A stretch of 64,000 nt of DNA from an uncultured Pseudomonadales bacterium (GTDB lineage: Bacteria; Patescibacteriota; Microgenomatia; UBA1400; MFAQ01), in the NCBI GenBank assembly GCA_964439805.1, contig CAYTOI010000002.1, positions 47,489-111,488 on the forward strand. The letters are read 5' to 3'. The position numbers and the translations under genes were made by a program. Of the stretch, positions 1-17,000 are shown piece after piece (within the stretch, counting starts at the first letter, position 1; each line of letters begins with the position of its first letter). Under the pieces are notes generated by a model. The model was not told the DNA's origin. It made no database searches and saw only the letters and a list, made by a program, of their open reading frames with translations.

Positions 1-735
1 ACCATCTACCCAAAGACCCTGAAGTTTTTCTTTGGCACTTGGTTCCTCTACATTCATTGCGCTTCTTGAATTGTAATCGTCACTAGCTCCGCCAATTAGC
101 TTTGGTAAAAACGAAACAATATCATTATTTTTCTGCGACAAGAAAGTATTTTTCCAAACTAGGTTGTCCCAAGGCTTCGACACAGAGTTAGCGATCAAAA
201 AGTTCTCTGTAGGCATCAAGTCTTTTACAGATGGGGCAATTCTCCTTACTGCTTCAATTTTTGTTTCACCAATTTTTCTATTTACTTCCGACGCTATTTC
301 TAGCAGAGTTTTTTGCCACCAGACACTTTCGCCAGCTGAGGCGCCTTCCCAAATATTGTAGGCGTCTACGATACCTTTGTTTGGCGAACCAGCCATAATA
401 ACCTTCGATACATTTTGGTTATTGAATTTTTGCAAATAAGTTCTGGCTACAAGTCCGCCCATGCTATGACCAACTAAATTTATTTTCTTGTCTGCTAAGT
501 TATTTGCGACAATAAAACCATTTAAGTCACTAGCTAAGTCGTCTAAACTTTTCCTCCAGTCATAAGGGAAAACATAAAAATCTTTATTCACCTCGTAGTT
601 CGCTGCCTTGAGAGAATTAATAACTCCGTCATATTCTTTTACAAACAATGGTACTTGCCAGTTGCTGCCACTGGTACCACCCAAAACTGCTTCTACATTC
701 CAGCTCCCCCCAAGGAGGTGTACATTGTTACAACA
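1..735 (-). CDS. LCAT-like alpha/beta-hydrolase lipase, 3'-truncated at window edge (putative C-terminal body of a split gene)
   Basis: Minus-strand frame open from stop (736-738) to window start; absent from the ORF track because it runs off the edge. Translation contains FPYDWRKS, nucleophile elbow NLVGHSMGG (~455-480) and VIMAGSPNKG: LCAT/PF02450-type lipase signatures. No in-frame ATG at the 5' end (possible TTG at 684). Confidence 0.6.
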
Positions 736-821
736 TTAAATATATTGTTAGAGTTGTGGTGAGTCGGGTAGAGTATCAACGAGTAAGAATGGAGGGGTCG
801 AGGTACTTCCACCGATAAGGG

Positions 822-1295
822 TTATTTTGAGTTTTTCCCGTTTAGAATATCATCAATTATCTTGTTTCCAGTGTTGCTTACTTGACCAGGTCTTGAACTA
901 AATATTTTTGTAAAGTCTATTGGTTTACTTGGAGGAGTCTGTAGATATGGTAAGAGTCTGTTGATTGGAGTCATTGTAATTGGTGGCAAAGTTCCTGGCT
1001 TGATTTTTAGTGTTAAACTCCCCTTGATTTTTTTATTTATCCACTCCCAAGCATCTTTATTCAATACTCCATTGAAATCATTCATATCGACCTTCATTAT
1101 TAAAAACGATAGTCCTTTGCACCGAGCAATAATGGTATCTGCAAGATACTTCGAAGAGGCGTTGGTTTGGACAATATAAGTATTGGGGAGATAGTGCCAC
1201 CAGTCATCTATTGTGGCCGTTGTTGTAATGGCGCTATGAAATACTGACGGTTCAATACCTTGGGTGTCGTTGTAGGTAATTAAATAAAACTTCAT
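822..1295 (-). CDS. hypothetical protein (157 aa)
   Basis: ORF; 4-nt overlap (ATGA) with upstream gene, part of minus-strand operon. No recognisable motifs. Confidence 0.45.
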   Translation of the reverse strand: MKFYLITYNDTQGIEPSVFHSAITTTATIDDWWHYLPNTYIVQTNASSKYLADTIIARCKGLSFLIMKVDMNDFNGVLNKDAWEWINKKIKGSLTLKIKPGTLPPITMTPINRLLPYLQTPPSKPIDFTKIFSSRPGQVSNTGNKIIDDILNGKNSK

Positions 1296-1711
1296 ATTTT
1301 TACCTCCTTTCCTGATACTGGCTCAACTTCATAGGTTAGCGACTTTGGAATATTCTTTATAGTCGGTTGGTAAAATTCTGTTTGGGTAGGCAATTCCATT
1401 AAACCAGAAGTTTTATTCCCAAGCTGGATTTTTTGAAGTTGAATCCAATACTTATCTTCTCTGAACATATCTTTGTGATAAATTGCCAAATAACCCATGA
1501 ACCCTGAAATTCCAGCACAAAAAACCAGAAAGGAACAAAAAGCGTATAGCGGATAACCGAAGAAGGCAAAAAGTACAAGAAAAAACCCGATTATCTGTAG
1601 CAAATAAAGAAAATGTTTTGCGCCACTACTTTGTGAGACAAATTGTAAAATTTGTCCTGCCACTCGCATTATGGTCGAATCTCTATTGTCTGGCATATTA
1701 TCTATGCCCAT
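1292..1711 (-). CDS. hypothetical membrane protein (139 aa, 2-3 TM helices)
   Basis: ORF with hydrophobic segments (LYLLQIIGFFLVLFAFFGYPLYAFCSFLVFCAGISGF); operon context. Confidence 0.45.
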   Translation of the reverse strand: MGIDNMPDNRDSTIMRVAGQILQFVSQSSGAKHFLYLLQIIGFFLVLFAFFGYPLYAFCSFLVFCAGISGFMGYLAIYHKDMFREDKYWIQLQKIQLGNKTSGLMELPTQTEFYQPTIKNIPKSLTYEVEPVSGKEVKI

Positions 1712-1721
1712 ATTTTACACC

Positions 1722-2135
1722 CTACCTCACCGCATTATATTCAACCGCGCATTTCCAAGAACAACAAGCTTCTCCTGCTGGACATGGCTTGCCACATACT
1801 CTACATTTTCCAGGTACAAACTTTTTAACCATCTTTCTATTCGATTCTCTACACACTACACTGCAATATCTAGTTTTTGGATAACCCAAGAAATTTCCGC
1901 CACAAGCCTTACATGTTAACCGCGAAGCATGTTCTCCCAAGCTCTCCAACTTACAACTATTTGAGCAATAACTTTTTTGGTCTTCCTTTAATTTCTTACC
2001 GCAAAACTTACAAACCTTTTCTATTTCTTTTGGTTTGGGCGCTGGGGGATTTAAAAAATCATGTTCGCATTTTGGGCTACAGAATCGCCCCGAACCATAG
2101 AAAAAACTAGAACAATAAGTGCAACTGCCCCACAT
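1722..2135 (-). CDS. Cys-rich protein with four tandem zinc-ribbon-like repeats (137 aa)
   Basis: Repeated C-x2-C...C-x3/4-C units (CxxCxxK...YCSxxC) four times; no family assignment. Confidence 0.45.
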   Translation of the reverse strand: MWGSCTYCSSFFYGSGRFCSPKCEHDFLNPPAPKPKEIEKVCKFCGKKLKEDQKSYCSNSCKLESLGEHASRLTCKACGGNFLGYPKTRYCSVVCRESNRKMVKKFVPGKCRVCGKPCPAGEACCSWKCAVEYNAVR

Positions 2136-2320
2136 AGTTATTTATTGGACTGTTTCTTTATCGCTGGTCGGTTCTTACTGTATCCAAGATTAAAAGCTGG
2201 TTTGTCTTTATCTTGCAACATTGGAATAGGAGCTTTGTTTATTGAGCCTTGTGGTGGCAAGCTTCCCATTTGGTAACCTTGATTTTTTTTGGTTTCAAAA
2301 GTCATTTTGTATTTAAATAA

Positions 2321-2740
2321 TTAGTAAAGTAGGTCATCTTCGAGTTGACCTTGTAGTTTTTCTAAGCGTTCCTCTTTGGTTTGCCAACCACGAACTCTAC
2401 TTTTTTCCAAAGCTTCCTCTGTCTTTTTTTGAGCCTCAACTACTCCAGCCCAATACTTTCCTTTTTCGTCGAATGTCATTGCTGGCATTTCAGAAGCGGC
2501 ACTCACGCGCTCAATTAATTCTGAGTGTGCTTGGGTGTACCCTTTCACCTTCATTTCTTGAAGCGTTTTTTGTTGGTTCGCCTCAAGAACTGGCTTCCAG
2601 TTATCGAAAGCGGGTCCAATTCCAACTTCTAAATCCTTTTGAGCTTTGTCCATAGCAATGGCATTGTTTAAGCGCTCTATAAAAGAGGGGTTGGTAGATG
2701 ATGTTTTGTATGCGACATCGCGCATTATTGGTCTGTTCAT
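2321..2740 (-). CDS. hypothetical protein (139 aa)
   Basis: ORF in minus-strand operon; start codon directly abuts stop of the 47-aa ORF upstream (TAAATG). Confidence 0.45.
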   Translation of the reverse strand: MNRPIMRDVAYKTSSTNPSFIERLNNAIAMDKAQKDLEVGIGPAFDNWKPVLEANQQKTLQEMKVKGYTQAHSELIERVSAASEMPAMTFDEKGKYWAGVVEAQKKTEEALEKSRVRGWQTKEERLEKLQGQLEDDLLY

Positions 2741-2884
2741 TTATTTAACTTTCTTGTTGTTATTAACTCCACTCGCTATTCTTCTAGCTCTTACAGGGTT
2801 AAATCCGCGAGCTAATAATTCAGCAAGTTTCTTAATAAACTTTTCCCCTTTACCCTGGGGACCAGGAATGTCGTTGTATGCCAT
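2741..2884 (-). CDS. small basic protein (47 aa), unlisted ORF
   Basis: ATG at 2884 two nt after the stop of the 1049-aa gene; stop TAA (2741-2743) immediately followed by the ATG of the next gene. MAYNDIPGPQGKGEKFIKKLAELLARGFNPVRARRIASGVNNNKKVK. Fills an otherwise empty gap in a tightly coupled operon. Confidence 0.35.
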   Translation of the reverse strand: MAYNDIPGPQGKGEKFIKKLAELLARGFNPVRARRIASGVNNNKKVK

Positions 2885-2886
2885 AG

Positions 2887-5800
2887 TTATAATTTTGTTT
2901 TAAATCCTTTTAGAAAATCGCTGGAGTCGTATTCCTCAAGAAGGGACTTGGGAAGTTTGCCTACTTTGGGAGCAATTATTTTTCTAGGAGCGGAAGCCTT
3001 AATGGGTGAGACTGAGATTTTTCTTATTGCGGGTGACTTGGTTCCAGAACTAACCTTCTTGCCTTTGGTTGCTGATATGACCTTGTTAAATGCTTTCTGT
3101 TGGTTCTCAGTGATAAAACCATCATCTAGCCACTTAGCTGTAACTCCTGTGGTTAAAACCTCGGACTCAGCAAGTTTATAAACTGTCTGGGCGTATTGTT
3201 GTTCTGTCATTCCTGAAAGGAAGTTCACCAAGTAGTTTCCACGACTGCCACTATCGACAGGAAGTGTCTTCATCATTTTCAAAGAACTTTCTTCGTAATT
3301 TGGCAAGCCTCTTTTTTGTAGAACTAACTCAATTTTGTCTTTAGATAGTCCAGACTGAAAAATTTGCTTTATTTCGTTAACTTGGTCTGAGACCTGTGTT
3401 TGTTTGTCCAAAGTGTCCAACAGTAAATCACCTCTTGAGGTACTAGTTTTTTTAGTTGTACCAAAAACTTTCTCCTTTAATAAATCGAAGAGGTTAAAAC
3501 TTTGCTGGCCAGAAATATCTTTTTTCAATGACTCCGCTTGTGTTCTGCCTTGTGTTGCTGTGGCATACGCGTCTTCTGGTTTTATTCCAGCGGAAACAAG
3601 TGACCTGTAAATGTCGGATTGGTTAACACCTAATGGATTTGGTTTATCAAAATACTTTTTGGCATTTTCTCCAACTGTAGGACCAAACATAATATCTTGC
3701 ACAGCGTTACCGCTCGGATACTTAAGGTTTCCTGTGGTTGGTGAGTACACTCCGCCTTGGAGCTGGCTTTGTAGGCCATTGTAGGACTTCAATATTTGGC
3801 CTCCTGCGGGGATGTATGACATTCCGCCTTTGAGAATGTCTTTTGGTCCATTTTCGTTACCTGTTGCTGTTTCAATAATTCCCTTTGGAAGTTGTAGGGT
3901 TGGTGGCGTTGTAGATATTCCAGAATTAAAAGGAATCATATTGTCCCACTCCATTCCTACAGCTTTTCCAATTGTTGAGGTGAACAATAAGGAAGCACCT
4001 ATATAGCGAAGTAGACCAGCAAAATCTTTTTGTACTACTTTGTTTCCTAAAAACTCCACTTGTTTGACCCCGAAAGACTGGAATTGTAAAAGTGTTTTTG
4101 CAATATCGCTTTGTAAAGCTACAGGTGTGTCTATGGCTCCAAAATTAAACTGTGTCTTGCGGACAATAGACTTGGCGAATTCAATAGCTTTTTCCTCACT
4201 TATTCCTTTATCTATCGCTTGAGCTTTCGCGCCCCAATAAGCGGCGCCTCTATTTACTTTCTCAGCTAGGTTAAACATGTAAAACAATCCGTCGTCCAGT
4301 TTTTGTAAAGTTTTACGAGTGGCGTTTAGGGTTCTATCTTCAATAAAAGAATTTTTAAGAACTCCAACTTTTTCCAGCTCACTATCGGCACCCGTGACAA
4401 AGTTCTTTAAGTTCTTGGCGACCTGGGTATAACCTTTGAGAGTGTATTTTTCTCCTAGTTCTGCGTAGGTATTGGCTCCTTGAGACAGGTTACGAAGGGC
4501 ACTCGCTGGATTCAAGCCAATTAAACCCTTGTAGACGGCTTGTCTAGCTTTTTGGGTAATAGCAGTCGTTGGTCTTTGACCAAATTTATAGCCAATAGGA
4601 CTACTTTTTATCGTGTTGTCCAAGAGGTTATCAATATCGGTAGGACGCATTTGGACACGGTCAATAAAATTCTTTACATAATTAAACTGTGAAGTTTCTA
4701 GGTCGTCGGCTACAGTTTTAACTTTCTCAAGTGCAGGGTCCATCCAATACTTACGGACTGCTCTTTTTGTATAAGCGTCCAAAGCCTGCCAAGTGTCTTG
4801 TATGTAACCTTCAGCGTCACCGCGTTTTTGGAGGAAAGGGTCATAAGTAGAGCCCGCAACCTTGTCACGAATTAACTTCGCAAATTCTGGGTCAAACTCT
4901 TGCTCTACTTCACCTCTCTTAAAAATATGGGTAATGTAGTTTGAGAGTCTTTTGTCTTTTGGAAGTTTTAACTTCTCAGCCCAATCGGAAAGATAACCCT
5001 TGATTTCAGTAGCCACTTTCAACTCTGTCTTATCCAAAAACTTCTCAGGCGCTTTACCGTCTAGGTACTGGAAAATAAGTTTATTGCTTTCTGGTGAGAC
5101 TTGTTTACTCCACTCTGTAATTTTGCTAATTTCCTTTGGAAGTTCATCCAAATATGTATCGTGTGCCAAGCGAATACTTTGAAACTCTGGCTTAAGTCCC
5201 ATTTTGCTAAACACAGTTGAGGGAGTGCGAAGGTAGTCCAATAAATTTACTTTTGACTTAACACTAAGTCCTGCCTCATCCGCAAACTTTGTCGCCATGT
5301 TCTCAATTGTTTTACCTTCTATTTTCGCCCAAGCTTTACTTGCTGGCATTTCTATCATTTCTTTTTCTGAAAATTTACCAGCTAAATAACTCAATCTCTT
5401 TTGAGGGTCTAAGCTTCTAAATGCTTTTTGTAACTTTGTAAATGGTCCAGCTTCACCCTCCAATTTACTTGCAAGTACTTGGGCGCCTTTCTTGATTAAG
5501 GGACTGGCTTTTGCACCAATATCCTCAATAGGGGCAGTCATACCCATAATCATTCCCGACATTCTGTTAAAGTCTTCTTTTTGTAAACTCTTTATATCTT
5601 GAGGTGTAGCTTTGTCATTGTAAAAATTTTCTGTAGCGGTTCTTGTCTCATCTGAAGGGCTCAACATGGTTTTAAATAGACCGCCAAAAACTGGTGTTTT
5701 GAAAATTGTGTTTTTTTTAAAATTCTCAATTGCTGGTGAGGCTTTAACTGGTGCACCATATAAACCAACCTTTCTAGCTTTTTCGGAATCTGAAATATAT

Positions 5801-6036
5801 TGGTCAAATTGTTGCTGTAAACCTTGGAAGGCTTTTGACAAATCGACTTTAAAAGTAGGCTTTTGGACTGTGTCCAAGTTTTTGACTATTTCACGAGTTG
5901 ATAAATTGCTTGGTCTGTAAGTAGATAACTCAGCGTTTAACTGGGCGTTTCTGTATGGGTCAATTGTTTTTTGTGGAGTGGGAGCGGGGTTTACGAACTC
6001 TTTGACCTTCTGGACGATGGCCTTAAAAATATTCAT
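2887..6036 (-). CDS. large hypothetical protein (1049 aa), element-encoded; possible virion/structural or DNA-delivery protein
   Basis: Uninterrupted 3.15-kb ORF, mostly soluble, Lys-rich C-terminal tail; start overlaps stop of upstream 405-aa gene (TAATG). No catalytic motif recognised by eye. Confidence 0.6.
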   Translation of the reverse strand: MNIFKAIVQKVKEFVNPAPTPQKTIDPYRNAQLNAELSTYRPSNLSTREIVKNLDTVQKPTFKVDLSKAFQGLQQQFDQYISDSEKARKVGLYGAPVKASPAIENFKKNTIFKTPVFGGLFKTMLSPSDETRTATENFYNDKATPQDIKSLQKEDFNRMSGMIMGMTAPIEDIGAKASPLIKKGAQVLASKLEGEAGPFTKLQKAFRSLDPQKRLSYLAGKFSEKEMIEMPASKAWAKIEGKTIENMATKFADEAGLSVKSKVNLLDYLRTPSTVFSKMGLKPEFQSIRLAHDTYLDELPKEISKITEWSKQVSPESNKLIFQYLDGKAPEKFLDKTELKVATEIKGYLSDWAEKLKLPKDKRLSNYITHIFKRGEVEQEFDPEFAKLIRDKVAGSTYDPFLQKRGDAEGYIQDTWQALDAYTKRAVRKYWMDPALEKVKTVADDLETSQFNYVKNFIDRVQMRPTDIDNLLDNTIKSSPIGYKFGQRPTTAITQKARQAVYKGLIGLNPASALRNLSQGANTYAELGEKYTLKGYTQVAKNLKNFVTGADSELEKVGVLKNSFIEDRTLNATRKTLQKLDDGLFYMFNLAEKVNRGAAYWGAKAQAIDKGISEEKAIEFAKSIVRKTQFNFGAIDTPVALQSDIAKTLLQFQSFGVKQVEFLGNKVVQKDFAGLLRYIGASLLFTSTIGKAVGMEWDNMIPFNSGISTTPPTLQLPKGIIETATGNENGPKDILKGGMSYIPAGGQILKSYNGLQSQLQGGVYSPTTGNLKYPSGNAVQDIMFGPTVGENAKKYFDKPNPLGVNQSDIYRSLVSAGIKPEDAYATATQGRTQAESLKKDISGQQSFNLFDLLKEKVFGTTKKTSTSRGDLLLDTLDKQTQVSDQVNEIKQIFQSGLSKDKIELVLQKRGLPNYEESSLKMMKTLPVDSGSRGNYLVNFLSGMTEQQYAQTVYKLAESEVLTTGVTAKWLDDGFITENQQKAFNKVISATKGKKVSSGTKSPAIRKISVSPIKASAPRKIIAPKVGKLPKSLLEEYDSSDFLKGFKTKL

Positions 6037-10457: not shown

Positions 10458-10629
10458 AGCCTGCTAATTTAGAAGTAAATTTTGAGTATCGTTCTGTAAT
10501 ATCTTGTAAATAGTCACTTGTTCTCATCAAGCCTCGGGTAAGCCACCATGTGAACATTGCAAACAAAAAACTTGTCTTTAATAGAAACATAGCTGTTTTG
10601 TAGGAAGGCGCGTCGATGGTAACTATCAT
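10435..10629 (-). CDS. small membrane protein (64 aa)
   Basis: ORF with one TM segment. Confidence 0.3.
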   Translation of the reverse strand: MIVTIDAPSYKTAMFLLKTSFLFAMFTWWLTRGLMRTSDYLQDITERYSKFTSKLAGYDTNPTE

Positions 10630-10805
10630 TTGCCAATTTTGTTAGTTAAAGTTAGTTGAATTTTGTCCAACTCCAAAATTATTTTGTCTGCTGAAAAATT
10701 GACCTCACCAATTGCCTTGGTTAACATTAGTAACTCGTTAAAGGTATCTATAATCTTTTTCTCTTTTTTGGAGGGCACGGCTTTTTGTTTAATTTCTTCT
10801 ATCAT
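10626..10805 (-). CDS. hypothetical protein (59 aa; ORF track extends it to 10910)
   Basis: Internal ATG at 10805 lies 4 nt (AAAA) after the stop of the upstream gene; the 5' extension to 10910 overlaps the upstream gene by 100 nt and is probably not translated. Confidence 0.3.
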   Translation of the reverse strand: MIEEIKQKAVPSKKEKKIIDTFNELLMLTKAIGEVNFSADKIILELDKIQLTLTNKIGK

Positions 10806-10809
10806 TTTT

Positions 10810-11241
10810 TTAAAATATTTCTGTTGGTCTTGGTGTTCTACCACCTGGTTTATTATTTGGGTTATTTGGTGACCAAAATGGTCCTGTTCTTGTTGTTCTA
10901 CTATTAGCAATCTTCACAGCGTCACCAGGCAGGATTTTGGTACTCTTAGTCATTCCAAGACGGCGCTCGACATCTGGGCGGGCTTTCTCGCACTTATCGC
11001 ATAAGGGCACACTCTTGGAACGAGTATCTTTAATGAATGCAGGGCCACCACACCAAAGACAAACTTTGACACTTATTCCGCGGGTCTTGGCGTACTCTTT
11101 AGCTTTCTCAAATTCGTATTGTAGATTTTCGGACAGGTGCGAGTGACCTACTTTGGTCTCTTCAATTTCTTGTCTCTTCTCATCTGAAAATTGAGATTGG
11201 GCTTCGTTGTGTAAATATTGGTCTAGTTTATTCATAAACAA
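10810..11241 (-). CDS. zinc-ribbon protein (143 aa)
   Basis: CLWCGG...CDKC zinc ribbon; low-complexity C-terminal tail. Confidence 0.45.
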   Translation of the reverse strand: MFMNKLDQYLHNEAQSQFSDEKRQEIEETKVGHSHLSENLQYEFEKAKEYAKTRGISVKVCLWCGGPAFIKDTRSKSVPLCDKCEKARPDVERRLGMTKSTKILPGDAVKIANSRTTRTGPFWSPNNPNNKPGGRTPRPTEIF

Positions 11242-11245
11242 TCGC

Positions 11246-11452
11246 TTATTTGAGGTTTTTAATAAAAGAAATAATTTCGGAGCCTAAAAAACTATATGAC
11301 CCTTGACCATCAAAACCACCCTTACCAATACGACTGGGTTTTAACTTTCCTTCTCTAACAAATCTTTCAGCCCTAACTCTACCAATCCCAAGAGTTTTCT
11401 GGGTCTCTTTGTAGTTATAAATTGCGTCTCTTTTTATTGTTGTCTTCTCCAT
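11246..11452 (-). CDS. excisionase/HTH_17-like DNA-binding protein (68 aa)
   Basis: YNYKETQKTLGIGRVRAERFVREGKLKPSRIGKG matches the Xis/MerR-type helix-turn-helix pattern (...iGr.rr.....). Confidence 0.5.
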   Translation of the reverse strand: MEKTTIKRDAIYNYKETQKTLGIGRVRAERFVREGKLKPSRIGKGGFDGQGSYSFLGSEIISFIKNLK

Positions 11453-11544
11453 GTTTTAAAGATGTATCGCTAAAACAAATAAATCAATCATCAAGTGTTC
11501 GCCATTTCCAAACAAATGACACAAGATTGAAGCTAAATTCATGC

Positions 11545-11573
11545 TTGACAGAATGCCTATAGTTTGATTATAT
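11545..11573 (+). promoter_or_regulatory. sigma70-like promoter TTGACA-17-TTATAT
   Basis: Consensus -35 at 11545-11550, 17-nt spacer, -10 TTATAT at 11568-11573; in divergent intergenic region. Confidence 0.45.
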
Positions 11574-11751
11574 GAGTACAGAGTTGCAGTAGAGAAAAAA
11601 TCTCAGGCGACCACAAACAATCAATAAATACATGACTCGTATTTTTTGGTGTAAGTGGCCGCTTTTTTGTTGGTTGGGATAAGGAAAAAACTTTATCCGA
11701 GCTAATAAGCTCGAAAGACAAAATTCTTGATATGGATTGTGTCGCAGAAGC

Positions 11752-11783
11752 GTAGGTGGTGGTCTGCCCTGGCTACCACCTAC
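11752..11783. promoter_or_regulatory. 9-bp perfect inverted repeat GTAGGTGGT-N14-ACCACCTAC in leader of HTH/rep operon
   Basis: Read directly; not followed by a U-run, so more likely operator/attenuator than terminator. Confidence 0.3.
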
Positions 11784-11815
11784 AAACAAAAAATTATTTA
11801 TTAAATCGAAAAATT

Positions 11816-12082
11816 ATGACAAATCTCGATATTTATTTAAGTTACTCCTTGGGAGCGAACGATATTCGTTTCCTTGAGTTACTACAAACTTTACCAAACT
11901 GTGAGTGGAGGGACAAGCAGACGGCATTAGCCATTGACCTACGCCTTCACAAAACCACAGTTAACGAAATGATTAAACGACTCAAGAAAAAGAAGTTGGT
12001 TCGAGTTAGAAAAACAAAAAAAAGTGTGCCCCTAGTTATCAAGCTTGGTTTGGAGCTAAGAAAGGAGAAAACAAATGGCTAA
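11816..12082 (+). CDS. small HTH transcriptional regulator (88 aa; MarR/wHTH-like)
   Basis: ...KQTALAIDLRLHKTTVNEMIKRLKKKKLV; ATG at 11816 preferred over GTG 11756, which lies in the hairpin. Confidence 0.45.
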   Translation: MTNLDIYLSYSLGANDIRFLELLQTLPNCEWRDKQTALAIDLRLHKTTVNEMIKRLKKKKLVRVRKTKKSVPLVIKLGLELRKEKTNG

Positions 12083-13016
12083 CAGAAAAAAGGTAATAGA
12101 TAACGATTCTGCTTGTGCTCTTGGTTTAACCGAGTCTGTAGTTTTTAATCAAATTAACTATTGGTCAAAAAAATCAAAACACACAGTCAACGGAGTATCT
12201 GGTTGGTTCTACAAAACTTTTGACAAATTCCAAAAAGAGGACTTCCCTTTTTTGTCAGTACGATGGATAAAAACTACCATAAAAAAACTTAACGAGCTGA
12301 AACTAATTGAGGTAGGAGAATTTAATACTTGGAGAGCTGACCGCACAAAGTGGTACAAAGTTGCCGACGACGCTGAGGCCAAAATCAAAGCTATTTTAGA
12401 AAAAAAGCATAGTGAACAAAATGCACTATGCTCTGACACAAAGTGCACTATGCCAAAGTGCACAAAGTGCACGAGCAATAACCATAGAGTAACTAAACCA
12501 AAGAGTACAGACATAAATTTAGAATTACATTCTAATGGCGGTGCCATTTTAAAGGACTCAGTAAGTAATAAAGTTAGACTATCTATTGAGACAAATAGTT
12601 ACAACAAGACCGAGCCAATAAGCGCTTACTCCAATAATCGCCTAGCAGAAATCACCACCACCCTTCTAGCTAAACGCCACCTGACCAAGTTAACTTTCGA
12701 GCTAGACAAACCTTTACCGCCAAATGAAAAAGGTGAGTATCCAGCAGAGGCGTATCAACTTATCCGCGATTATGGCTGTTCTTACTCACCAGACAGTTTT
12801 CTGTATAACGAAGGCGACGATAAAAATTGGGGATACTTTGGCCGAAGAATAAAAGAAGCATTTCAAGAAGGAGCGACCGTTGAAGGACTGTGCGGCGCAA
12901 TTTACAGAATTGCAGAAGGTGAGGACATAAACAACCTTGGCTCTTTCAGAGATGAGCCCATTCAGGTTGATAGTGTTTATTCCGAATGGTCTGCTTGGAC
13001 AAATAAAGTTGAATAA
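12075..13016 (+). CDS. replication-initiator-like protein (313 aa) containing internal iterons
   Basis: Good SD (AAAGGAG); N-terminal wHTH-like segment; internal tandem repeats AAAGTGCAC x3; position after regulator gene. Confidence 0.4.
   Translation: MANRKKVIDNDSACALGLTESVVFNQINYWSKKSKHTVNGVSGWFYKTFDKFQKEDFPFLSVRWIKTTIKKLNELKLIEVGEFNTWRADRTKWYKVADDAEAKIKAILEKKHSEQNALCSDTKCTMPKCTKCTSNNHRVTKPKSTDINLELHSNGGAILKDSVSNKVRLSIETNSYNKTEPISAYSNNRLAEITTTLLAKRHLTKLTFELDKPLPPNEKGEYPAEAYQLIRDYGCSYSPDSFLYNEGDDKNWGYFGRRIKEAFQEGATVEGLCGAIYRIAEGEDINNLGSFRDEPIQVDSVYSEWSAWTNKVE
12422..12472. repeat. iteron-like direct repeats (AAAGTGCAC x3 at 12440, 12455, 12464; TGCACTATGC x2) with palindromic GTGCAC cores
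   Basis: Seen directly within the rep-like ORF. Confidence 0.5.
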
Positions 13017-13018
13017 AT

Positions 13019-13363
13019 ATGAAATTACAAAAAATTATTAAAACCATGGAAAAAACCTGTAACCGCTGTCACCAGCAAAAACCACAAAATGAATTTAGTA
13101 ACAAATACCGCTGTAGAGAATGCAGTAGAGAACTTTTTAGAGACTACTACCGCAGACATGCAGAAGAACTAAATGAGAAGGGAAGAATTTGGCGCATGAA
13201 TAACCAAGAAAAAGTAAAAGCAAACGCTAAGGAATATTTTAAAAATCATAAACAAGAAATTAATTCTTATTTAAAAAAGAGAAGAGACCAAAAGAAACTT
13301 AACAACCCCATAGCAAATGCATTTGTAAGACCTCAGGATGCCTCTAAATCGTTTGCAAAATAA
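13019..13363 (+). CDS. basic zinc-finger protein (114 aa)
   Basis: CNRCHQQK...RCRECSRE two CxxC pairs; K/R-rich remainder. Confidence 0.4.
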   Translation: MKLQKIIKTMEKTCNRCHQQKPQNEFSNKYRCRECSRELFRDYYRRHAEELNEKGRIWRMNNQEKVKANAKEYFKNHKQEINSYLKKRRDQKKLNNPIANAFVRPQDASKSFAK

Positions 13364-13407
13364 CTTTACGACTACTATTACAAAAGACCTATAAAAAAAC
13401 AAATATT

Positions 13408-13782
13408 ATGAAAAATAAAACAACAAAAAAAGAAAACTACTTCTTAGGAGTTTTCGGACAAGAATTAATAAAAAACTTGTTTCCATTAACAACACCAGGC
13501 AAAAGAAGTTTTGACCTTCGGGTATTAACTGAGGAAAAACCAAAAGTCGGAACTCGTATAGAAGTAAAAACGAGAAAGCCAAGAAGAGGAGGAACTTTCC
13601 AAATAAACTTTACAAGACATGAAAGGACTCACAGCGACACAACGGCAATTTTACTGCTGGCTGATGATTTTGAGATATTAAGGCTTTACTGGATACCTAC
13701 CGCATTTTTACCTCGAGATAAGGGGTTTTTATATTTTGGGAAAAAAGTAAACCCAAAGTATGAGAGTTTTAGGCTTATTTAG
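13408..13782 (+). CDS. hypothetical protein, possible PD-(D/E)xK nuclease fold (124 aa)
   Basis: FDLRVL...RIEVKTRK resembles D...(E)xK core; weak. Confidence 0.3.
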   Translation: MKNKTTKKENYFLGVFGQELIKNLFPLTTPGKRSFDLRVLTEEKPKVGTRIEVKTRKPRRGGTFQINFTRHERTHSDTTAILLLADDFEILRLYWIPTAFLPRDKGFLYFGKKVNPKYESFRLI

Positions 13783-14098
13783 ATTTCTCTGGAAACAGAA
13801 AATCGTACAACTTAGTACCGCCAAAAAATAGTACAAGCAAACTAAAACCAATACCAAAGCCGTACCATATTATGCTGGAAACTTGAGCAAGGTCCTTATA
13901 GTACCATCCGCACACCCCTGGTGAATTTACTCCACTAAACCTTGATTGACATTCTAATGTATTTAAATACGCATTGTGAGCTATCTTGTCGTAATTCAAT
14001 AAGTAAAGTGAGGCCACTCCGATAGACAAAACAGACACAAGAACAACTAAAAAACGAACCACGATATATAGACGCTTTTTATCAAGTTTTCTACTCAT
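13775..14098 (-). CDS. membrane protein (107 aa, 2 TM)
   Basis: Two hydrophobic helices flanking Cys-containing loop. Confidence 0.4.
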   Translation of the reverse strand: MSRKLDKKRLYIVVRFLVVLVSVLSIGVASLYLLNYDKIAHNAYLNTLECQSRFSGVNSPGVCGWYYKDLAQVSSIIWYGFGIGFSLLVLFFGGTKLYDFLFPEKSK

Positions 14099-14165
14099 AA
14101 TTAAATTATACTCTTGAGCAAATTATATCCTTTATGAGCAAGAGATGAGCTAAAATATTTTCCAA

Positions 14166-14339
14166 ATGCAACTCTCACAACAGGCCATAGAGGAGTACAA
14201 AGATATTATCCTGAAGGATTATGGAATAAAGTTGACTGACTTAGAGGCAACAGAGCAAGCAACAAAACTTATAAACCTGTTTAAGGTTTTGGCTAAGCCA
14301 GTTCCAGAAAGTAAAACCGAACCTACAAAAAATCTATAG
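14166..14339 (+). CDS. possible small protein (57 aa), unlisted
   Basis: MQLSQQAIEEYKDIILKDYGIKLTDLEATEQATKLINLFKVLAKPVPESKTEPTKNL; no clear SD; low confidence. Confidence 0.2.
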   Translation: MQLSQQAIEEYKDIILKDYGIKLTDLEATEQATKLINLFKVLAKPVPESKTEPTKNL

Positions 14340-14378
14340 GTTTTGTCGAAGTACTAAAATTATAGTAGCATATATTTA

Positions 14379-14621
14379 TTGATATATCAACAAATAATTG
14401 ACAATAAAATATATAAAGTGTATATTGACGGCATGGACATATTTAATACACCAGAAGGAAAAAAGTTTTTAGAAGCATACAAGGTAACCCGCCAAACTAT
14501 TCCCAACGAAAAAAGGTGGAAACTAGCTGAAGAACGACTAAATGGCTTACCGCTATCCGTAAAAAAAGAAGAGAAAGCTCAAGGCATACCCCTTAGTGTG
14601 GTGACTTTAAACAAAAAATAA
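14379..14621 (+). CDS. hypothetical protein (80 aa), upstream of integrase (possible directionality factor)
   Basis: ORF only. Confidence 0.3.
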   Translation: MIYQQIIDNKIYKVYIDGMDIFNTPEGKKFLEAYKVTRQTIPNEKRWKLAEERLNGLPLSVKKEEKAQGIPLSVVTLNKK

Positions 14622-14662
14622 TAACCCAAGGACATCATCTTTGAACTATAATAAATTTAAAG

Positions 14663-16333
14663 ATGAAAAAAGCAGTAGCATACCTTCGTGTTAGTACTGA
14701 TAGCCAAAGCACTAGTTCTCAAAGGGACAAAATACAAGAATATGCCGTAGCAAATGGCTATGAAGTTGAGAAATGGTTTGAGGACTCTGCTCTTTCTGGA
14801 ACTCTAGACGATAGACCTCAACTCTTAGCTCTAAAAGAATGGGTACCAAACAATGAGGGCAAAAGTATTTTAATGGTTGGCCTCGATAGACTTGCGAGAG
14901 ACTTTGCAATATTTATCGACATGTCAACGCTTTTCAATAATTACAATGTAACCCCTGTTTACATAAATTGTCCAAGTAGTGGTGACGCAGTCATGGACAC
15001 TTTTCTCCAAAATATTCTAGCCTCTTTTGCTTCACTAGAAAAAGAACTCATTTCTCAAAGATTTAATAGAGGAAAACGATTTAAATTAAAAAATGGAATT
15101 ATTGCCGCTGGTGGTCCGCCATTGTTTGGGTATAAGTATCGGGTCGACTATTATCCTAGTGGTAAAAAAGATAAGTATTACGAAATAAACGAGGAGGAGG
15201 CGGAGACTGTTCGCCTCATGTTTAGAATGCTGTTATCTGAAAAGTACAAAGTTCAAGGAATTGGTAGAGAGTTAACTAGATTAAAAATCAGAACCCGCTC
15301 AGGGACTACCAGATGGGCGCCAAGCAGTACTCGAAGTCTGCTTTGTAACACAACATATATGGGTGATTACAGATACGGCAAAACTAAAATGCAAGGAGTT
15401 GGAAAAAATAGACACGAAGTCCCTCGAGCCATTGAAGAACAAATGGTTATTCCTGTACCTCCAATAATTACAAGAGAAGAATTTGCAAGAGCACAAGAAA
15501 TACTTGAGAGATTGGCGAGAGGTGCGGGTGGTCGCAAGCGACACAATGACACAGTTTTACTTTCAGGACTAATGATTTGCGGAAACTGTAACTATAGGTA
15601 TTCAGCAGGTGGACGAAGTACAGGGAAAAGGCTACATAGTTATTACAGGTGTAATTCTATAAACCGCTATAACGCAGACGGTGAACACCACTCCTGTGGT
15701 AACGCTACTTTGAAAACGGCCGAGGCGGATAGTGCAGTTTGGAACGCACTCGCGGATATACTTATAAACCCCGATAAGGTTAAAAACACCACAGACTCAA
15801 AAAGAAGAAAAGAGGAAATAGAGGGAATGTATGACGATATGATAAGTTTGGTTAAAAGACAGGAAAAAATTGCCGATGAGGAAAAAAGAATAATTGATGG
15901 TTATGCCAAGGGTTTGTTTGGAGATAGTCAAGTTAGGGAATACAGACAAGACTTAGCTGAGAAAAATAAAGAAATTGGCGATAAGTTACACGAAATAAAT
16001 TTACAAGTAAGCAACGCGTTGTGGGAGGATGGGGAGATAGATTTTGGCAAACCAAAAACTAGGAAGCAGGTCGACAAGTACACTTTTGATAAAAAGAGGG
16101 AGCTTATAAAAACCTACATTACAGAAGTTAGAGTTTTACCAACCGAACCAACCAAGTTAGAGATAGTTTTTAGGTTACCAATTGAGCCTAACAAGTCAGT
16201 TGTAACAATCAACGGCTCCCCGCGGGAAGTAGTACCTAGTTACAAAAATAATGGAAAAGTTGTAACAACTAATAACTCCCTCCAAATCCAGGCAAGATCA
16301 CTACCTTCTCCTTCTCGGGAGCAGGGCTTGTAA
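14663..16333 (+). CDS. large serine recombinase (phage-type integrase, 556 aa)
   Basis: N-terminal resolvase catalytic domain (AVAYLRVSTDSQ, ...GLDRLARD), recombinase domain, zinc-ribbon (CGNCNYRYSAGG...YYRCNS), coiled-coil region. Confidence 0.9.
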   Translation: MKKAVAYLRVSTDSQSTSSQRDKIQEYAVANGYEVEKWFEDSALSGTLDDRPQLLALKEWVPNNEGKSILMVGLDRLARDFAIFIDMSTLFNNYNVTPVYINCPSSGDAVMDTFLQNILASFASLEKELISQRFNRGKRFKLKNGIIAAGGPPLFGYKYRVDYYPSGKKDKYYEINEEEAETVRLMFRMLLSEKYKVQGIGRELTRLKIRTRSGTTRWAPSSTRSLLCNTTYMGDYRYGKTKMQGVGKNRHEVPRAIEEQMVIPVPPIITREEFARAQEILERLARGAGGRKRHNDTVLLSGLMICGNCNYRYSAGGRSTGKRLHSYYRCNSINRYNADGEHHSCGNATLKTAEADSAVWNALADILINPDKVKNTTDSKRRKEEIEGMYDDMISLVKRQEKIADEEKRIIDGYAKGLFGDSQVREYRQDLAEKNKEIGDKLHEINLQVSNALWEDGEIDFGKPKTRKQVDKYTFDKKRELIKTYITEVRVLPTEPTKLEIVFRLPIEPNKSVVTINGSPREVVPSYKNNGKVVTTNNSLQIQARSLPSPSREQGL

Positions 16334-17000
16334 TACTTAAAAAATCAACCAATATTGATGCTCTAGAAGTTACTGTAATTGTCTCCTGGGGGCTACCAAA
16401 TAATGCATACTTTAGATTTCTACTAGCTATATAGCTTTTTATGCTATTTGAATCAATTGATACATCATATAATCCATTTTTATAATTAACTTTAAAATCG
16501 TGATAAATATTGAGATTAAAAGTGCTAATTTTTCTAAATTGATTTTGGTTGCACCCAGGTTCGGTTGTTGGGCATAAACTAGTCCAAAGATTTGCCGTAG
16601 TATTACTTTCAGGCCATATTAGAAAAATAATATCGCTAGGCAGAATATCTCTCTTGTCTAGATTTGGAAAAATTTTGTCAGATAGTATTATTCCAGATCC
16701 AAAATTTAATGGACCTTCTATTTTAAATTTTGTTAAGAGTTTATATTCAAGAAGCGGAAATATATCAGGCTTGGAAACTAGATATGGAAAAAAATTACCC
16801 GATGGGGTACTCAACTTAATAGATCCATCTATTATAGAAACGCTTCCGTAGTTTTGATAAACCGTCCATTTAGATTCATCTACCGTATCAAAATTATCGA
16901 TATAGATTTTATCTGCCGAAAAAATATGGCTGGGGAAGATAATTAAAAAAACAAACAGCAAGCAAGAACAAGAAAAAAATACTTTGATAATGTGTCTCAT
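16269..17000 (-). CDS. secreted N-terminal portion of the split LCAT-like lipase gene (243 aa: signal peptide + beta-rich domain, ends ...KVVILPGFGGSY*)
   Basis: Signal peptide; C-terminus PGFGGS = LCAT oxyanion motif immediately followed by a stop; overlaps integrase 3' end. Confidence 0.5.
   Translation of the reverse strand: MRHIIKVFFSCSCLLFVFLIIFPSHIFSADKIYIDNFDTVDESKWTVYQNYGSVSIIDGSIKLSTPSGNFFPYLVSKPDIFPLLEYKLLTKFKIEGPLNFGSGIILSDKIFPNLDKRDILPSDIIFLIWPESNTTANLWTSLCPTTEPGCNQNQFRKISTFNLNIYHDFKVNYKNGLYDVSIDSNSIKSYIASRNLKYALFGSPQETITVTSRASILVDFLSITSPAPEKEKVVILPGFGGSY

What the first reader, a model, noticed from the sequence alone, without database searches (positions are those of the whole stretch)
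1..17000. A ~15.6-kb serine-integrase element appears to split an LCAT-type secreted lipase gene exactly at its oxyanion (PGFGGS) motif
On the minus strand, the ORF at 16269-17000 encodes a signal peptide plus beta-rich domain and ends ...KVVILPGFGGSY*. PGFG is the LCAT-family oxyanion motif. Its stop lies inside the 3' end of the serine recombinase gene. About 15.5 kb away, a minus-strand frame (stop at 736-738, no ATG) begins ...VHLLGGSWNV... and continues with FPYDWRKS, GHSMGG and downstream lipase blocks. The FPYDWRKS block lies ~50 aa after the GG motif, the same spacing as in LCAT. The two junctions share GGAGGGAG (16276-16283) versus GGGGGGAG (704-711), and the G-G-S codons are in matching frames. 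Excision would therefore recreate a single secreted lipase (...ILPGFGGSWNVEAV...). Everything between carries integrase, Xis-like, rep-like and structural-like genes. If correct, this gives attL/attR, the attB core, and a host gene (a secreted lipase) that is likely inactivated by lysogeny and restored on excision. It is unusual that the integrase's last ~17 codons overlap the junction.
Basis: partly seen in the sequence, partly recalled or inferred. Interest (0 to 1): 0.8.

Follow-up and report, generated by a model that had tools for sequence, protein, structure and literature searches.

The report
Mobile element splits a lipase gene
A 15.6-kb mobile element, inserted by its own serine integrase, cuts a secreted lipase gene of a candidate-phyla-radiation bacterium in two at a conserved active-site motif; related elements hit the same spot in other genomes, so this is a clear new example of a known kind of event.

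Summary
Minus-strand ORF 16269-17000 and the minus-strand frame from 711 down to 1 are two halves of one LCAT-like secreted lipase. About 25 uninterrupted homologues of 685-815 aa read straight across the break (…VILPGFGGSWDV…).

The insert is 15,572 bp (712-16283). It carries a large serine integrase, a DnaD-like replication initiator and a weak excisionase-type HTH protein.

The reconstructed attP has two 23-bp imperfectly inverted half-sites around a central GG. It matches an unintegrated attP found in a relative.

Five related integrases (53-75% identical) sit at the same lipase codons in hosts that are far more diverged. One carries a covarying CA central dinucleotide. Two carry restriction-modification cargo instead.

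Excision would restore the reading frame exactly. No read or assembly shows excision in this strain.

"Prophage" is not shown: no capsid, portal, terminase or tail gene was detected. The 405-aa and 1049-aa gene pair has relatives inside the structural modules of larger predicted phages, so the element is phage-related and possibly a satellite.

attP lies inside the int gene. Integration therefore replaces a conserved integrase C-terminal tail.

Verdict: a new member of a known kind (gene-splitting serine-integrase elements), with this tail swap as its unusual feature.

The parts
1..711 (-). Lipase C-terminal fragment. It starts at ...GG|SWNVEAV and carries FPYDWRKS and the GHSMGG nucleophile elbow. 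It continues beyond the window start; the source genome calls a 535-aa product, P0003.
   Evidence: Translation. P0003 is 100% identical. tblastn with P0001 residues 246-483 gives 90% identity. Pfam LCAT, Abhydrolase_1 and Palm_thioest hits.
687..734 (.). Left junction (host B' arm 687-709, central CC 710-711, element P arm 712-734, including the inverted-repeat end TTGTTACAAC at 725-734).
712..16283 (.). Integrated mobile element, 15,572 bp, counting one copy of the central dinucleotide.
   Evidence: Junction mapping. Its G+C (38.3%) matches the host's (38.7%).
712..818 (+). Coding sequence for the C-terminal tail of the free-form integrase (…GGVHCYNIKYIVRVVVSR…*). It is joined to int only in the excised circle.
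   Evidence: Reconstructed circle gives a 575-aa Int. The tail motif is conserved in L006/L023, L024 and L008 with synonymous codon changes.
822..2886 (-). Small genes downstream of the 1049-aa gene (157, 139, 137 Zn-ribbon-rich, 55, 139 and about 48 aa). The 137-, 55-, 139- and 48-aa genes are shared with relatives.
   Evidence: The 137-aa protein has weak treble-clef and HNH hits.
2887..6036 (-). 1049-aa all-alpha protein with a PLxRFG ('tail-700') type core, like the C-terminal part of phage polyvalent proteins.
   Evidence: NCBIfam NF032893, E 1.6e-15, below the cut-off. PHROG hits to giant DarB-like proteins. AlphaFold2 plus Foldseek against BFVD: 84 hits at E<=1e-3. At least 298 homologues, many in CPR bacteria. 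59 IMG/VR contigs.
6036..7253 (-). 405-aa coiled-coil partner of the 1049-aa protein.
   Evidence: 376 homologue clusters. AlphaFold2 single-sequence model shows long helices 123-211 and 234-350. The gene pair is conserved in L023, L024, L025 and L004.
7611..8961 (+). Variable cargo genes: a 183-aa protein, a 152-aa secreted Thr/Pro-rich protein with a YHYH-type motif, and a 110-aa secreted protein.
   Evidence: No PADLOC hits. Relatives carry SNase, AbiJ-like or DUF4145 genes at this position.
9958..11452 (-). Leftward operon of small genes, including a 68-aa HTH_17 (excisionase-type helix-turn-helix) protein at 11246-11452.
   Evidence: Pfam HTH_17, E 7e-4, below the cut-off. The 68-aa protein is 99% identical to the one in L024.
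11756..13363 (+). Replication module: a 108-aa winged-helix protein, a 313-aa DnaD-like replication initiator, and a 114-aa HNH/endonuclease VII-like protein.
   Evidence: PHROG 6493 and 11233, E 3e-20 and 1e-19. Weak MarR-type hits. PHROG 1035, E 1.3e-5.
14166..14621 (+). Two small ORFs (57 and 80 aa) just upstream of int. They are candidate recombination directionality factors by position only.
   Evidence: Relatives also have a 47-64 aa ORF before int. No family hit.
14663..16333 (+). Large serine integrase, 556 aa in the integrated state. Its last 17 codons are host DNA.
   Evidence: Pfam Resolvase 3.6e-25, Recombinase 5.7e-21, Zn_ribbon_recom 3.2e-11. phrog_95 integrase, 2.3e-89.
16259..16306 (.). 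Right junction (element P' arm 16259-16281 with inverted-repeat end GTTGTAACAA at 16259-16268, central CC 16282-16283, host B arm 16284-16306).
16269..17000 (-). Lipase N-terminal fragment: signal peptide, beta-rich domain and the first strand with PGFGGS, then Y and a stop supplied by the element.
   Evidence: Alignment to full-length homologues. tblastn.

Best explanation
A 15,572-bp integrative mobile element (712-16283) has inserted into the gene for a secreted LCAT-like lipase of a Microgenomates-group (candidate phyla radiation) bacterium.

Proposed steps:
1. Its large serine integrase recombined a 48-bp attP with a 48-bp attB. attP has two imperfectly inverted 23-bp half-sites around a central dinucleotide and lies inside the 3' end of int. 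attB encodes ...VVILPGFGGSWNVEAV....
2. The crossover was most likely at the GG of the Gly codon that follows Phe.
3. Integration leaves a 242-aa N-terminal piece (signal peptide plus beta domain) that stops two codons into element DNA. It also leaves a C-terminal catalytic piece with no promoter and no signal peptide. The lipase should therefore be inactive.
4. Integration replaces the integrase's own conserved C-terminal tail (…HCYNIKYIVRV…, 575 aa in the free form) with 17 host-templated residues (556 aa).
5. Recombination between the two junctions would rebuild both the intact lipase frame and attP. This probably needs an unidentified directionality factor.

What is shown: the split gene, the junctions, the integrase domains, the clade-wide use of this site, a free attP in a relative, and in-frame restoration in silico.

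What is inferred: the exact crossover base pair, present-day activity, loss of lipase function, and any regulatory use of excision.

The element is phage-related but carries no recognisable capsid or packaging genes. I treat it as an integrative element of satellite-like or unknown virion type, not as a proven prophage.
For: - The split gene is one gene. Homologues of 685-815 aa span the break with consensus VIILPGFGGSWDV. The nearest relatives (L001, L002) have the intact gene at the same locus, beside the same downstream 108-aa gene and a glycosyltransferase cluster; their polysaccharide-synthesis genes a little further upstream are 88-94% identical to the window's.
- The integrase has all three large-serine-recombinase domains and matches phrog_95 at 2e-89.
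- Reconstructed attP, GTTGTAACAACTAATAACTCCCT-CC-AAGGAGGTGTACATTGTTACAAC, has 17/23 half-site symmetry with the dinucleotide exactly central. attB has 5/23, as is usual for this integrase type.
- L008/L009 (integrase 70% identical) carry an uninterrupted attP that is colinear with this reconstruction and continues into ...AAATATATTGT as at window 739-749.
- Five further elements (L004, L006/L023, L010, L011, L024) have the int 3' end abutting a lipase N-fragment that ends PG[FLH][GQ][GA]S. Where the other end is available, a C-fragment starts there too. All four relatives with both ends available (L006/L023, L010, L011, L024) rebuild an open frame.
- Only two dinucleotide positions are identical at both junctions of every element. 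One of them is the attP centre, and it changes from GG to CA in L024 together with the host motif PGHQAS.
- Integrases are 54-78% identical, while host N-fragments are 24-38% and the adjacent glycosyltransferases 50-56% identical. This indicates independent horizontal insertions.
- Both lipase fragments are still open and the integrase is intact.
Against: - There is no direct evidence of excision or of an empty site in this strain. The att pattern has no match in the IMG/VR or JGI metagenome collections. The predicted intact lipase and the free-form integrase are not in the protein collection.
- A Logan contig from the source sample runs straight through the left junction without a break. The integrated form therefore dominates there.
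- The second candidate crossover (AG of the Ser codon) is not excluded.
- No directionality factor is identified.
- Whether the N-fragment keeps a function of its own, or whether a paralogue outside the window compensates, is unknown.
Confidence: 0.85

Rival explanations
1. The element is a true temperate phage. The split gene then reflects lysogeny, and excision accompanies induction and virion production.
For: - Homologues of the 1049-aa protein occur on 59 IMG/VR viral contigs.
- In L037 the homologous gene pair lies between internal-virion or virion-structural proteins and tail fibres. In L028 it lies right after the terminase subunits.
- Its fold matches phage polyvalent proteins.
- The module order (int, regulators, rep, accessory, late-like genes) is phage-like.
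Against: - Pfam, PHROGs and NCBIfam detect no capsid, portal, terminase, tail or lysis gene in 15.6 kb.
- The 405-aa protein is predicted to be coiled coil, not a capsid fold.
- The viral contigs that carry these genes together with packaging or tail genes are mostly 20-47 kb.
Confidence: 0.25
2. The element is a phage satellite or other non-autonomous integrative element. It keeps an ejection-type protein pair and relies on a helper phage for capsids. The lipase motif is simply a conserved, widely available landing site.
For: - It is 15.6 kb and has an integrase, a replication initiator and regulators but no packaging or capsid genes.
- Many relatives sit on 14-16 kb contigs.
- The same 400-aa and 1050-aa module is combined with a tyrosine integrase and a D5 primase in L025.
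- The same att site is used by elements that carry only restriction-modification and ATPase cargo.
Against: - No helper phage is identified.
- No known satellite hallmark, such as a capsid-size redirecting or terminase-small-subunit gene, was found.
- Proteins of CPR phages are often too diverged to detect, so absence of hits is weak evidence.
Confidence: 0.4
3. The insertion works as a reversible genetic switch (regulated gene integrity, or active lysogeny). The host or the element times excision to turn the secreted lipase on.
For: [quoted passage not shown]
- Both gene halves remain intact in every case examined.
- Restoration is exact.
Against: - Nothing shows conditional excision.
- Intact halves are also expected after recent insertion.
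- Targeting of a conserved motif is explained equally well by site availability.
Confidence: 0.2
4. The element is a fixed, no longer mobile insertion, and the lipase is a pseudogene in this lineage.
For: - The integrated form is assembled without a branch at the left junction in the source sample.
- No attB or attP was found anywhere for this strain.
Against: - int, both att junctions and both lipase halves are intact.
- Close relatives L001 and L002 have empty sites.
- The 68-aa HTH gene is 99% identical to the one in L024, which sits in a different host. This indicates recent exchange.
Confidence: 0.12

Closest known systems
SPbeta prophage in Bacillus subtilis spsM (integrase SprA, directionality factor SprB)
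   Same: A large serine integrase element sits inside a protein-coding gene and splits it. Precise excision rebuilds the frame (PMC4191935, PMC5499854; listed).
   Different: SPbeta is a 134-kb tailed phage, and its excision is developmentally timed and shown by experiment. Here the element is 15.6 kb with no recognisable virion genes. The target is a secreted lipase, the host is a CPR bacterium, and nothing is known about timing or a directionality factor.
Listeria A118 / phi10403S in comK; skin element in sigK (SpoIVCA); Anabaena fdxN element (XisF)
   Same: These are serine-recombinase elements that interrupt a gene and restore it on excision. XisF is the best NCBIfam match of this integrase (E 2e-30, far below its cut-off).
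   Different: The target genes and the biology differ (competence or phagosome escape, sporulation, heterocysts). The integrase is not an equivalog of any of them (scores are far below the cut-offs).
Regulated gene integrity candidates of Mageeney et al. 2020 (TIGER survey)
   Same: The same operational signature: multiple deduplicated integrative elements from a tight integrase clade disrupt the same protein domain (PMC7192596).
   Different: The word 'lipase' does not occur in that paper's main text. Whether CPR genomes were part of that survey was not checked.
Myxococcus phage Mx8 intP/intX, and integration-dependent immunity of mycobacteriophages BPs and Brujita (recalled from memory, not checked here)
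   Same: attP lies inside a phage gene, so integration changes that protein's C-terminus.
   Different: Those systems use tyrosine integrases, and in BPs the truncated gene is the repressor. Here the gene is a large serine integrase. I found no description of such a case in the literature searches run.
Phage polyvalent proteins / PLxRFG ('tail-700') domain proteins, such as DarB-like proteins
   Same: The 1049-aa protein shares the all-alpha C-terminal scaffold by sequence and by fold. Longer homologues carry lysozyme, VgrG3-C, PBECR5 nuclease and LPD1 domains.
   Different: This copy has no identifiable enzymatic head domain. Its score is below the NCBIfam cut-off, and it sits in a 15.6-kb element.

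Membership tests
Large serine recombinase (phage-type serine integrase) | N-terminal resolvase catalytic domain with the nucleophilic serine | tested here: met
   Pfam Resolvase PF00239, E 3.6e-25, residues 4-145. The YLRVSTDSQ motif is invariant across the clade.
Large serine recombinase (phage-type serine integrase) | Recombinase domain followed by a zinc-ribbon domain | tested here: met
   PF07508, E 5.7e-21; PF13408, E 3.2e-11. The coiled-coil insert was not examined separately.
Large serine recombinase (phage-type serine integrase) | An attP of about 50 bp with imperfect inverted half-sites around a central non-palindromic dinucleotide, and an attB that shares little beyond that dinucleotide | tested here: met
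   A 23+2+23 bp attP with 15-17/23 half-site identity in five elements, against 4-6/23 for attB. The central dinucleotide is GG in four elements and covaries to CA in L024. A free attP is present in L008.
Large serine recombinase (phage-type serine integrase) | Catalysis of attP x attB recombination, with excision dependent on a directionality factor | not testable with these tools
   Needs an in vitro or in vivo assay. No directionality factor was recognised.
LCAT-like alpha/beta hydrolase (PF02450) | Profile match above the curated threshold | tested here: met
   52.3 bits against a 21-bit cut-off, E 6.8e-14, for the joined protein. Homologues carry the same precomputed domain.
LCAT-like alpha/beta hydrolase (PF02450) | GxSxG nucleophile elbow plus acid and histidine residues | tested here: inconclusive
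   GHSMGG is invariant in 17 sequences. A near-invariant GDG and a near-invariant His lie downstream. Their roles in the catalytic triad were not confirmed by a structure.
LCAT-like alpha/beta hydrolase (PF02450) | First strand followed by a (H/P)G-x loop that supplies the oxyanion hole | tested here: inconclusive
   Abhydrolase_6 aligns from residue 233 at profile position 1, which places VVILPGFGGS as the first strand and loop. The oxyanion role of Phe follows from general alpha/beta-hydrolase knowledge, not from a test here. PDB sequence hits cover only the nucleophile region.
Regulated gene integrity / active lysogeny | Integration disrupts the coding sequence without supplying a functional replacement end | tested here: met
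   The N-fragments stop 1-10 codons after the motif Ser, in element DNA. The C-fragment has no ATG and no signal peptide.
Regulated gene integrity / active lysogeny | Multiple independent elements of one integrase clade disrupt the same domain | tested here: met
   Six occupied sites in diverged hosts. The criterion is as worded in PMC7192596.
Regulated gene integrity / active lysogeny | Conditional excision that restores gene function in living cells | not testable with these tools
   There is no read-level or experimental data. The exact look-up of restored products was negative.
Tailed temperate phage (Caudoviricetes prophage) | Terminase large subunit, portal and HK97-fold major capsid protein | tested here: not met
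   None of the 25 element ORFs scanned, of 27 tabulated, gave such a hit in Pfam, PHROGs or NCBIfam. This is sequence-profile sensitivity only.
PLxRFG / polyvalent-protein C-terminal module | Match to NF032893 at the curated cut-off | tested here: inconclusive
   E 1.6e-15, but 56.6 bits against a 100-bit cut-off. Fold matches to BFVD polyvalent proteins reach E 3.6e-16.

The most novel reading that the evidence does not exclude
This may be a CPR-specific family of small phage satellites or minimal viruses. Their serine integrase carries attP inside its own coding sequence, so integration converts a 575-aa integrase with a conserved tail (HCYNxKYIVR) into a 556-aa form with a host-templated tail. 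That isoform switch would help set recombination direction or integrase stability. At the same time the insertion would reversibly switch off a secreted lipase that an episymbiotic, lipid-dependent CPR cell may need to exploit its host.
Probability: 0.15. Interest if true: 0.75.

Novelty: new member of a known kind. Interest (0 to 1): 0.5.

Why it matters
- Integrated mobile elements of Microgenomates are barely described. A 2019 study called its phages and prophage the first reported for that superphylum (PMC6509639).
- This locus gives base-pair-resolved attB, attP, attL and attR for one element. It also gives four more natural att pairs from related integrases, including a natural central-dinucleotide variant. 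These are candidate orthogonal serine integrases and possible landing-pad tools for a group of bacteria with almost no genetic tools.
- It identifies a conserved secreted lipase as a recurrent insertion target. That makes the question of whether CPR cells toggle this enzyme directly testable.
- It links a widespread, unannotated 400-aa and 1050-aa gene pair of CPR genomes to phage structural modules.

Tried and rejected
1. A degenerate pattern matching attB, attP, attL and attR of this strain found only the two window junctions. It found nothing in IMG/VR or the JGI metagenomes.
2. Single-protein searches for integrase relatives in GTDB genomes and in IMG/VR found nothing. The alignment-based repeats added only L019, a copy truncated at 155 aa, and distant integrases at 24-27% identity.
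3. Exact look-ups of the restored 783-aa lipase and of the 575-aa free-form integrase were both negative.
4. L026 and L027, from a close relative of the 1049-aa protein, do not reach an att site.
5. L024 has no terminal overlap. It is an integrated copy, not a circular genome.
6. The inovirus idea, prompted by a literature hit, was dropped. No morphogenesis ATPase was found, and the 405-aa protein has no P-loop on inspection.
7. PADLOC found no defence genes in the window's cargo.
8. The PDB holds no fold match for the 1049-aa protein. The plasmid collection holds no homologue.
9. A PDB sequence search of the lipase gave only generic alpha/beta-hydrolase hits around the nucleophile.
10. A literature search for serine integrases with attP inside int was unproductive.
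11. Assembly chimera was rejected. The left junction is assembled independently in a Logan contig, and the architecture recurs in other samples.

Full report
**1. Checking the observation**

ORF 16269-17000 on the minus strand encodes 243 aa. It has a signal-peptide-like start and ends ...EKEKVVILPGFGGSY*. Its stop codon lies inside the plus-strand integrase gene, 14663-16333.

The minus-strand frame that opens after the stop at 736-738 reads CCNNVHLLGGSWNVEAVLGGTSGSNWQ...FPYDWRKS...GHSMGG and runs off the window start. It has no ATG.

Joined at GGS|W, the protein scores above Pfam's threshold for LCAT (52.3 bits against 21). It also hits Abhydrolase_1, Palm_thioest and PGAP1. Abhydrolase_6 aligns from residue 233, which makes VVILPGFGGS the first strand and loop of the hydrolase fold.

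A database search returned 54 homologues. About 25 are uninterrupted proteins of 685-815 aa covering 91-100% of the joined query. The named ones are from Collierbacteria, Shapirobacteria and the Microgenomates group.

In a 17-sequence alignment the break falls inside ...V(I/V)ILPGFGGSWDV.A(I/V)L.... The best homologue, P0001, reads EKEKVVILPGFGGSWDVEAVL. tblastn with P0001 aligns residues 1-250 to 16976-16272 and residues 246-483 to 714-1. It finds no other copy in the window.

**2. Empty sites**

P0001 and P0002 lie on contigs L001 (a wastewater metagenome) and L002 (a JGI metagenome). Both have the intact gene at the same locus, flanked by the same downstream 108-aa gene and an upstream glycosyltransferase cluster.

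Their DNA at the site is GTGATCTTGCCTGGTTTTGGAGGAAGCTGGGACGT. The window's two halves read ...GTGATCTTGCCTGGATTTGGAGGGAG and ...GGGGGGAGCTGGAATGT.

The window's host is a close relative of these two. Its GT1 is 88-94% identical, its polysaccharide synthase 89%, and the lipase C-terminal part 88-90%.

**3. The integrase and the att sites**

The 556-aa protein has Resolvase, Recombinase and Zn_ribbon_recom domains and matches the phage integrase family phrog_95 at 2e-89.

On the plus strand the two junctions are:
- Left junction: ...CATTCCAGCTCCCC-CC-AAGGAGGTGTACATTGTTACAAC (687-734).
- Right junction: GTTGTAACAACTAATAACTCCCT-CC-AAATCCAGGCAAGATCACTACCT (16259-16306).

Joining the element-side arms gives a 48-bp attP. 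Its ends are a perfect 10-bp inverted repeat (GTTGTAACAA / TTGTTACAAC). Its half-sites share 17 of 23 positions, and the CC (GG on the lipase strand) is exactly central. Joining the host-side arms gives an attB with only 5/23 symmetry that encodes KEKVVILPGFGGSWNVEAVL. The insert is 15,572 bp.

**4. Relatives**

Seven close integrase homologues exist, at 53-73% identity. Every one on a long enough contig was informative.

- **L004/L005, L006/L007 (other end on L023), L010, L011/L012 and L024.** All have the int 3' end overlapping a 241-257 aa minus-strand ORF. For L006/L007, L011/L012 and the window this ORF is confirmed by tblastn as a lipase N-fragment ending PG[FL]G[GA]S; in L004/L005 it is inferred from position and the same motif, because tblastn with P0001 found no hit there. 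Glycosyltransferase genes follow.
- **L011, L010, L023 and L024.** These also show the other junction, with the C-fragment starting at the same codon.
- **L008/L009 (integrase 70% identical).** This 7.5-kb contig is not next to a lipase. It carries an uninterrupted site, ATTGTAACAATTAATAACTCGCC-CC-AAGTAGTAGAACCTTGTTACAAT, followed by TTCAAATATATTGT. It is colinear base for base with the window's reconstructed attP and with the element's left end. This is comparative proof that the window's two element ends were once joined.

**5. The crossover position**

I required the two-base crossover to be identical at both junctions in the window, L006/L023, L011 and L010. That leaves only two positions: the first two bases of the codon after Phe/Leu (GG), or the AG of the Ser codon.

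Three results favour GG:
- It is the exact centre of attP in all five elements and in the free attP of L008.
- The element-side right-junction arms of L010 and L011 are identical from that GG onward.
- In L024 the host motif is PGHQAS, and this position is CA at both junctions. That covariation is expected only for the dinucleotide that must match.

The AG alternative is not strictly excluded. Either choice restores the same protein.

**6. Independence of the insertions**

Integrases are 54-78% identical to each other. The host N-fragments are 24-38% identical and the adjacent GT2 proteins 50-56%. The closest hosts, L001 and L002, are empty.

L010 and L011 share only the integrase and att design with the window. 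Their cargo is a Dcm-type methylase, Vsr, an NgoFVII-type restriction enzyme, an AAA_15/21 ATPase and DUF4238.

The 68-aa HTH protein of the window is 99% identical to that of L024, although the rest of the two elements is 60-70% identical and the host motif differs.

This is a horizontally moving clade of elements with one preferred target. It meets the working criterion for candidate regulated gene integrity in Mageeney et al. 2020 (PMC7192596).

**7. attP lies inside int**

In the integrated state the integrase ends ...VVTTNNSLQ|IQARSLPSPSREQGL*, and its last 17 codons are host DNA. In the reconstructed circle it reads ...VVTTNNSLQ|GGVHCYNIKYIVRVVVSRVEYQRVRMEGSRYFHR* (575 aa).

The free-form tails compare as follows:
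- Window: ...HCYNIKYIVRV...
- L006/L023: ...HCYNVKYIVRV...
- L024: ...HCYNLKYIVRT...
- L008, an actual uninterrupted gene: ...PCYNFKYIVRV...

Codon differences in this stretch are synonymous: Asn AAC/AAT, Ile ATT/ATA, Val GTT/GTG/GTC, Arg AGA/CGA/AGG/CGC. The opposite strand is not conserved as protein and is closed by stops.

The post-crossover tail is therefore a selected part of the integrase that every integration removes. Its function is unknown. The only analogues I know use tyrosine integrases (Mx8 intP/intX) or truncate a repressor (mycobacteriophage BPs). Both are recalled from memory and were not checked here.

**8. What kind of element is it?**

Recognised genes:
- The integrase.
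- A DnaD-like replication initiator (PHROG E 3e-20).
- A small winged-helix protein.
- An HNH/endonuclease VII-like protein.
- A weak HTH_17 protein.

No capsid, portal, terminase, tail, lysis or packaging ATPase was detected in any library. PADLOC found no defence gene.

The 1049-aa protein:
- It has at least 298 strong homologues. The named ones are mostly CPR bacteria, and many sit on 14-16 kb contigs.
- Longer homologues add lysozyme-like, VgrG3 C-terminal, PBECR5 nuclease or LPD1 domains.
- It matches the PLxRFG 'tail-700' model at E 1.6e-15, below the cut-off.
- Its AlphaFold2 model is all-alpha, with mean pLDDT 67.6.
- The model matches the C-terminal parts of phage polyvalent proteins in BFVD, with 84 hits at E<=1e-3. 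Nothing in the PDB matches, and the plasmid collection has no homologue.

Its 405-aa partner is predicted to be long coiled coils and has 376 homologue clusters.

IMG/VR holds 59 viral contigs with homologues, mostly 20-47 kb. In L037 the gene pair lies between internal-virion or virion-structural proteins and tail fibres. In L028 it follows the terminase subunits. In L025 (Daviesbacteria) the pair is combined with a tyrosine integrase and a D5-type primase.

My reading is that the pair is a virion-associated, probably ejected, module of CPR phages. The window's element is phage-derived but, on present evidence, not self-sufficient. It is either a satellite-like element or a virus whose structural genes are too diverged to recognise. 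Calling it a prophage is not justified yet.

**9. Mechanism**

Shown:
- The gene is split at a defined codon.
- The att architecture is as described.
- An integrase of the right type is present.
- The site is used repeatedly across the clade.
- The frame is restored exactly in silico.

Inferred from established knowledge of large serine integrases:
- Integrase dimers bind attP and attB.
- They make staggered cuts at the central dinucleotide, rotate subunits and religate.
- Excision needs a directionality factor. The candidates here, chosen by position only, are ORFs 14166-14339 and 14379-14621 and the HTH_17 protein.

Inferred for the host:
- The lipase is inactive while the site is occupied. 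The catalytic part lacks a promoter, a start codon, the signal peptide and its first strand.
- The N-terminal domain could still be made and secreted.

**10. Evidence on current activity**

For activity:
- All parts are intact.
- Empty sites exist in close relatives.
- There is near-identical gene exchange with L024.
- The L024 contig ends 28+2 nt into the host flank on one side. That is what a k=31 assembly-graph branch with an empty site would give. This is suggestive only.

Against activity:
- No attB or attP for this strain appears in any collection.
- The Logan contig from the source sample crosses the left junction without a break.

**11. Novelty and score**

Gene-splitting serine-integrase elements are well known. 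Examples are SPbeta in spsM, A118 in comK, skin in sigK and XisF with fdxN (papers listed).

What is new here:
- The target, the oxyanion-loop motif of a secreted LCAT-like lipase.
- The host group. Integrated elements of Microgenomates are hardly described (PMC6509639).
- The element family.
- The int-embedded attP with a conserved tail that integration removes.

I rate it a new member of a known kind, interest 0.5.

Noticed in passing
window 712-818 with 16259-16283; L008 3880-4022; L023 about 15060-15135; L024 about 15300-15375: attP lies inside int. The free-form integrase carries a conserved tail (H/P-C-Y-N-x-K-Y-I-V-R) after the crossover. Codon changes there are synonymous only (Arg AGA/CGA/AGG/CGC). 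Integration replaces this tail with host-templated residues.
   Followed up: partly
window 16284-17900, compared with L002 4907-6738 and L001: The window's host is about 88-94% identical to the L001/L002 hosts in flanking genes and in the lipase C-terminal part. However, the lipase N-terminal domain plus the adjacent glycosyltransferase gene (16320-17900) are non-homologous to theirs. Homology resumes at 16284-16320 (37 nt, 94.6%), just before the crossover. A domain-plus-gene cassette swap therefore abuts attB.
   Followed up: partly
L010 and L011/L012 (whole elements of about 10-11 kb): Elements with a 53-54% identical integrase use the same lipase site but carry a Dcm methylase, Vsr, an NgoFVII-type restriction enzyme, an AAA_15/21 ATPase and DUF4238. 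They lack the phage-like module. This looks like a defence island riding on the same integrase and att system.
   Followed up: partly
window 11246-11452 and L024 4455-4661: The 68-aa HTH_17 protein is 99% identical between the window and L024, while neighbouring genes are 29-73% identical and the host lipase motif differs. This indicates recent modular exchange.
   Followed up: no
L024 ends (1-30 and 15374-15410): This 15,410-bp Logan contig is a whole element bounded by only about 30-39 nt of host lipase at each end. On the N-side the length equals k-1 for k=31. That is as expected if an empty site coexists in sample SRR22388068.
   Followed up: no
window 2887-7253; L025, L028, L037: The 400-aa and 1050-aa gene pair is a widespread unannotated module of CPR genomes and of predicted phages. 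Some homologues carry lysozyme, VgrG3-C or nuclease domains. In larger viral contigs it sits in the structural gene block.
   Followed up: partly
L017 (= L004) and L018 (= L010) record titles: The source MAGs are labelled 'Spirochaetia bacterium' and 'uncultured Gammaproteobacteria bacterium'. The contigs nevertheless carry the Microgenomates-type lipase and glycosyltransferase context. These are probably mis-binned or mislabelled.
   Followed up: no
window 8174-8632: Cargo gene for a secreted 152-aa protein with a YHYH-type motif (NF033223, E 1.8e-5, below the cut-off) and a long Thr/Pro-rich region. Relatives carry SNase, AbiJ-like or DUF4145 genes at this position.
   Followed up: no
window 27047-27118, 42034-42109, 49865-49939: Three tRNA genes (Gly-CCC, Thr-CGT, Asp-GTC) are the only Rfam matches in the window. 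None is next to the element.
   Followed up: no
L024 host flanks: This is a lipase variant with PGHQAS in place of PGFGGS at the loop thought to form the oxyanion hole. It is still used as attB, by an element whose central dinucleotide matches it.
   Followed up: no
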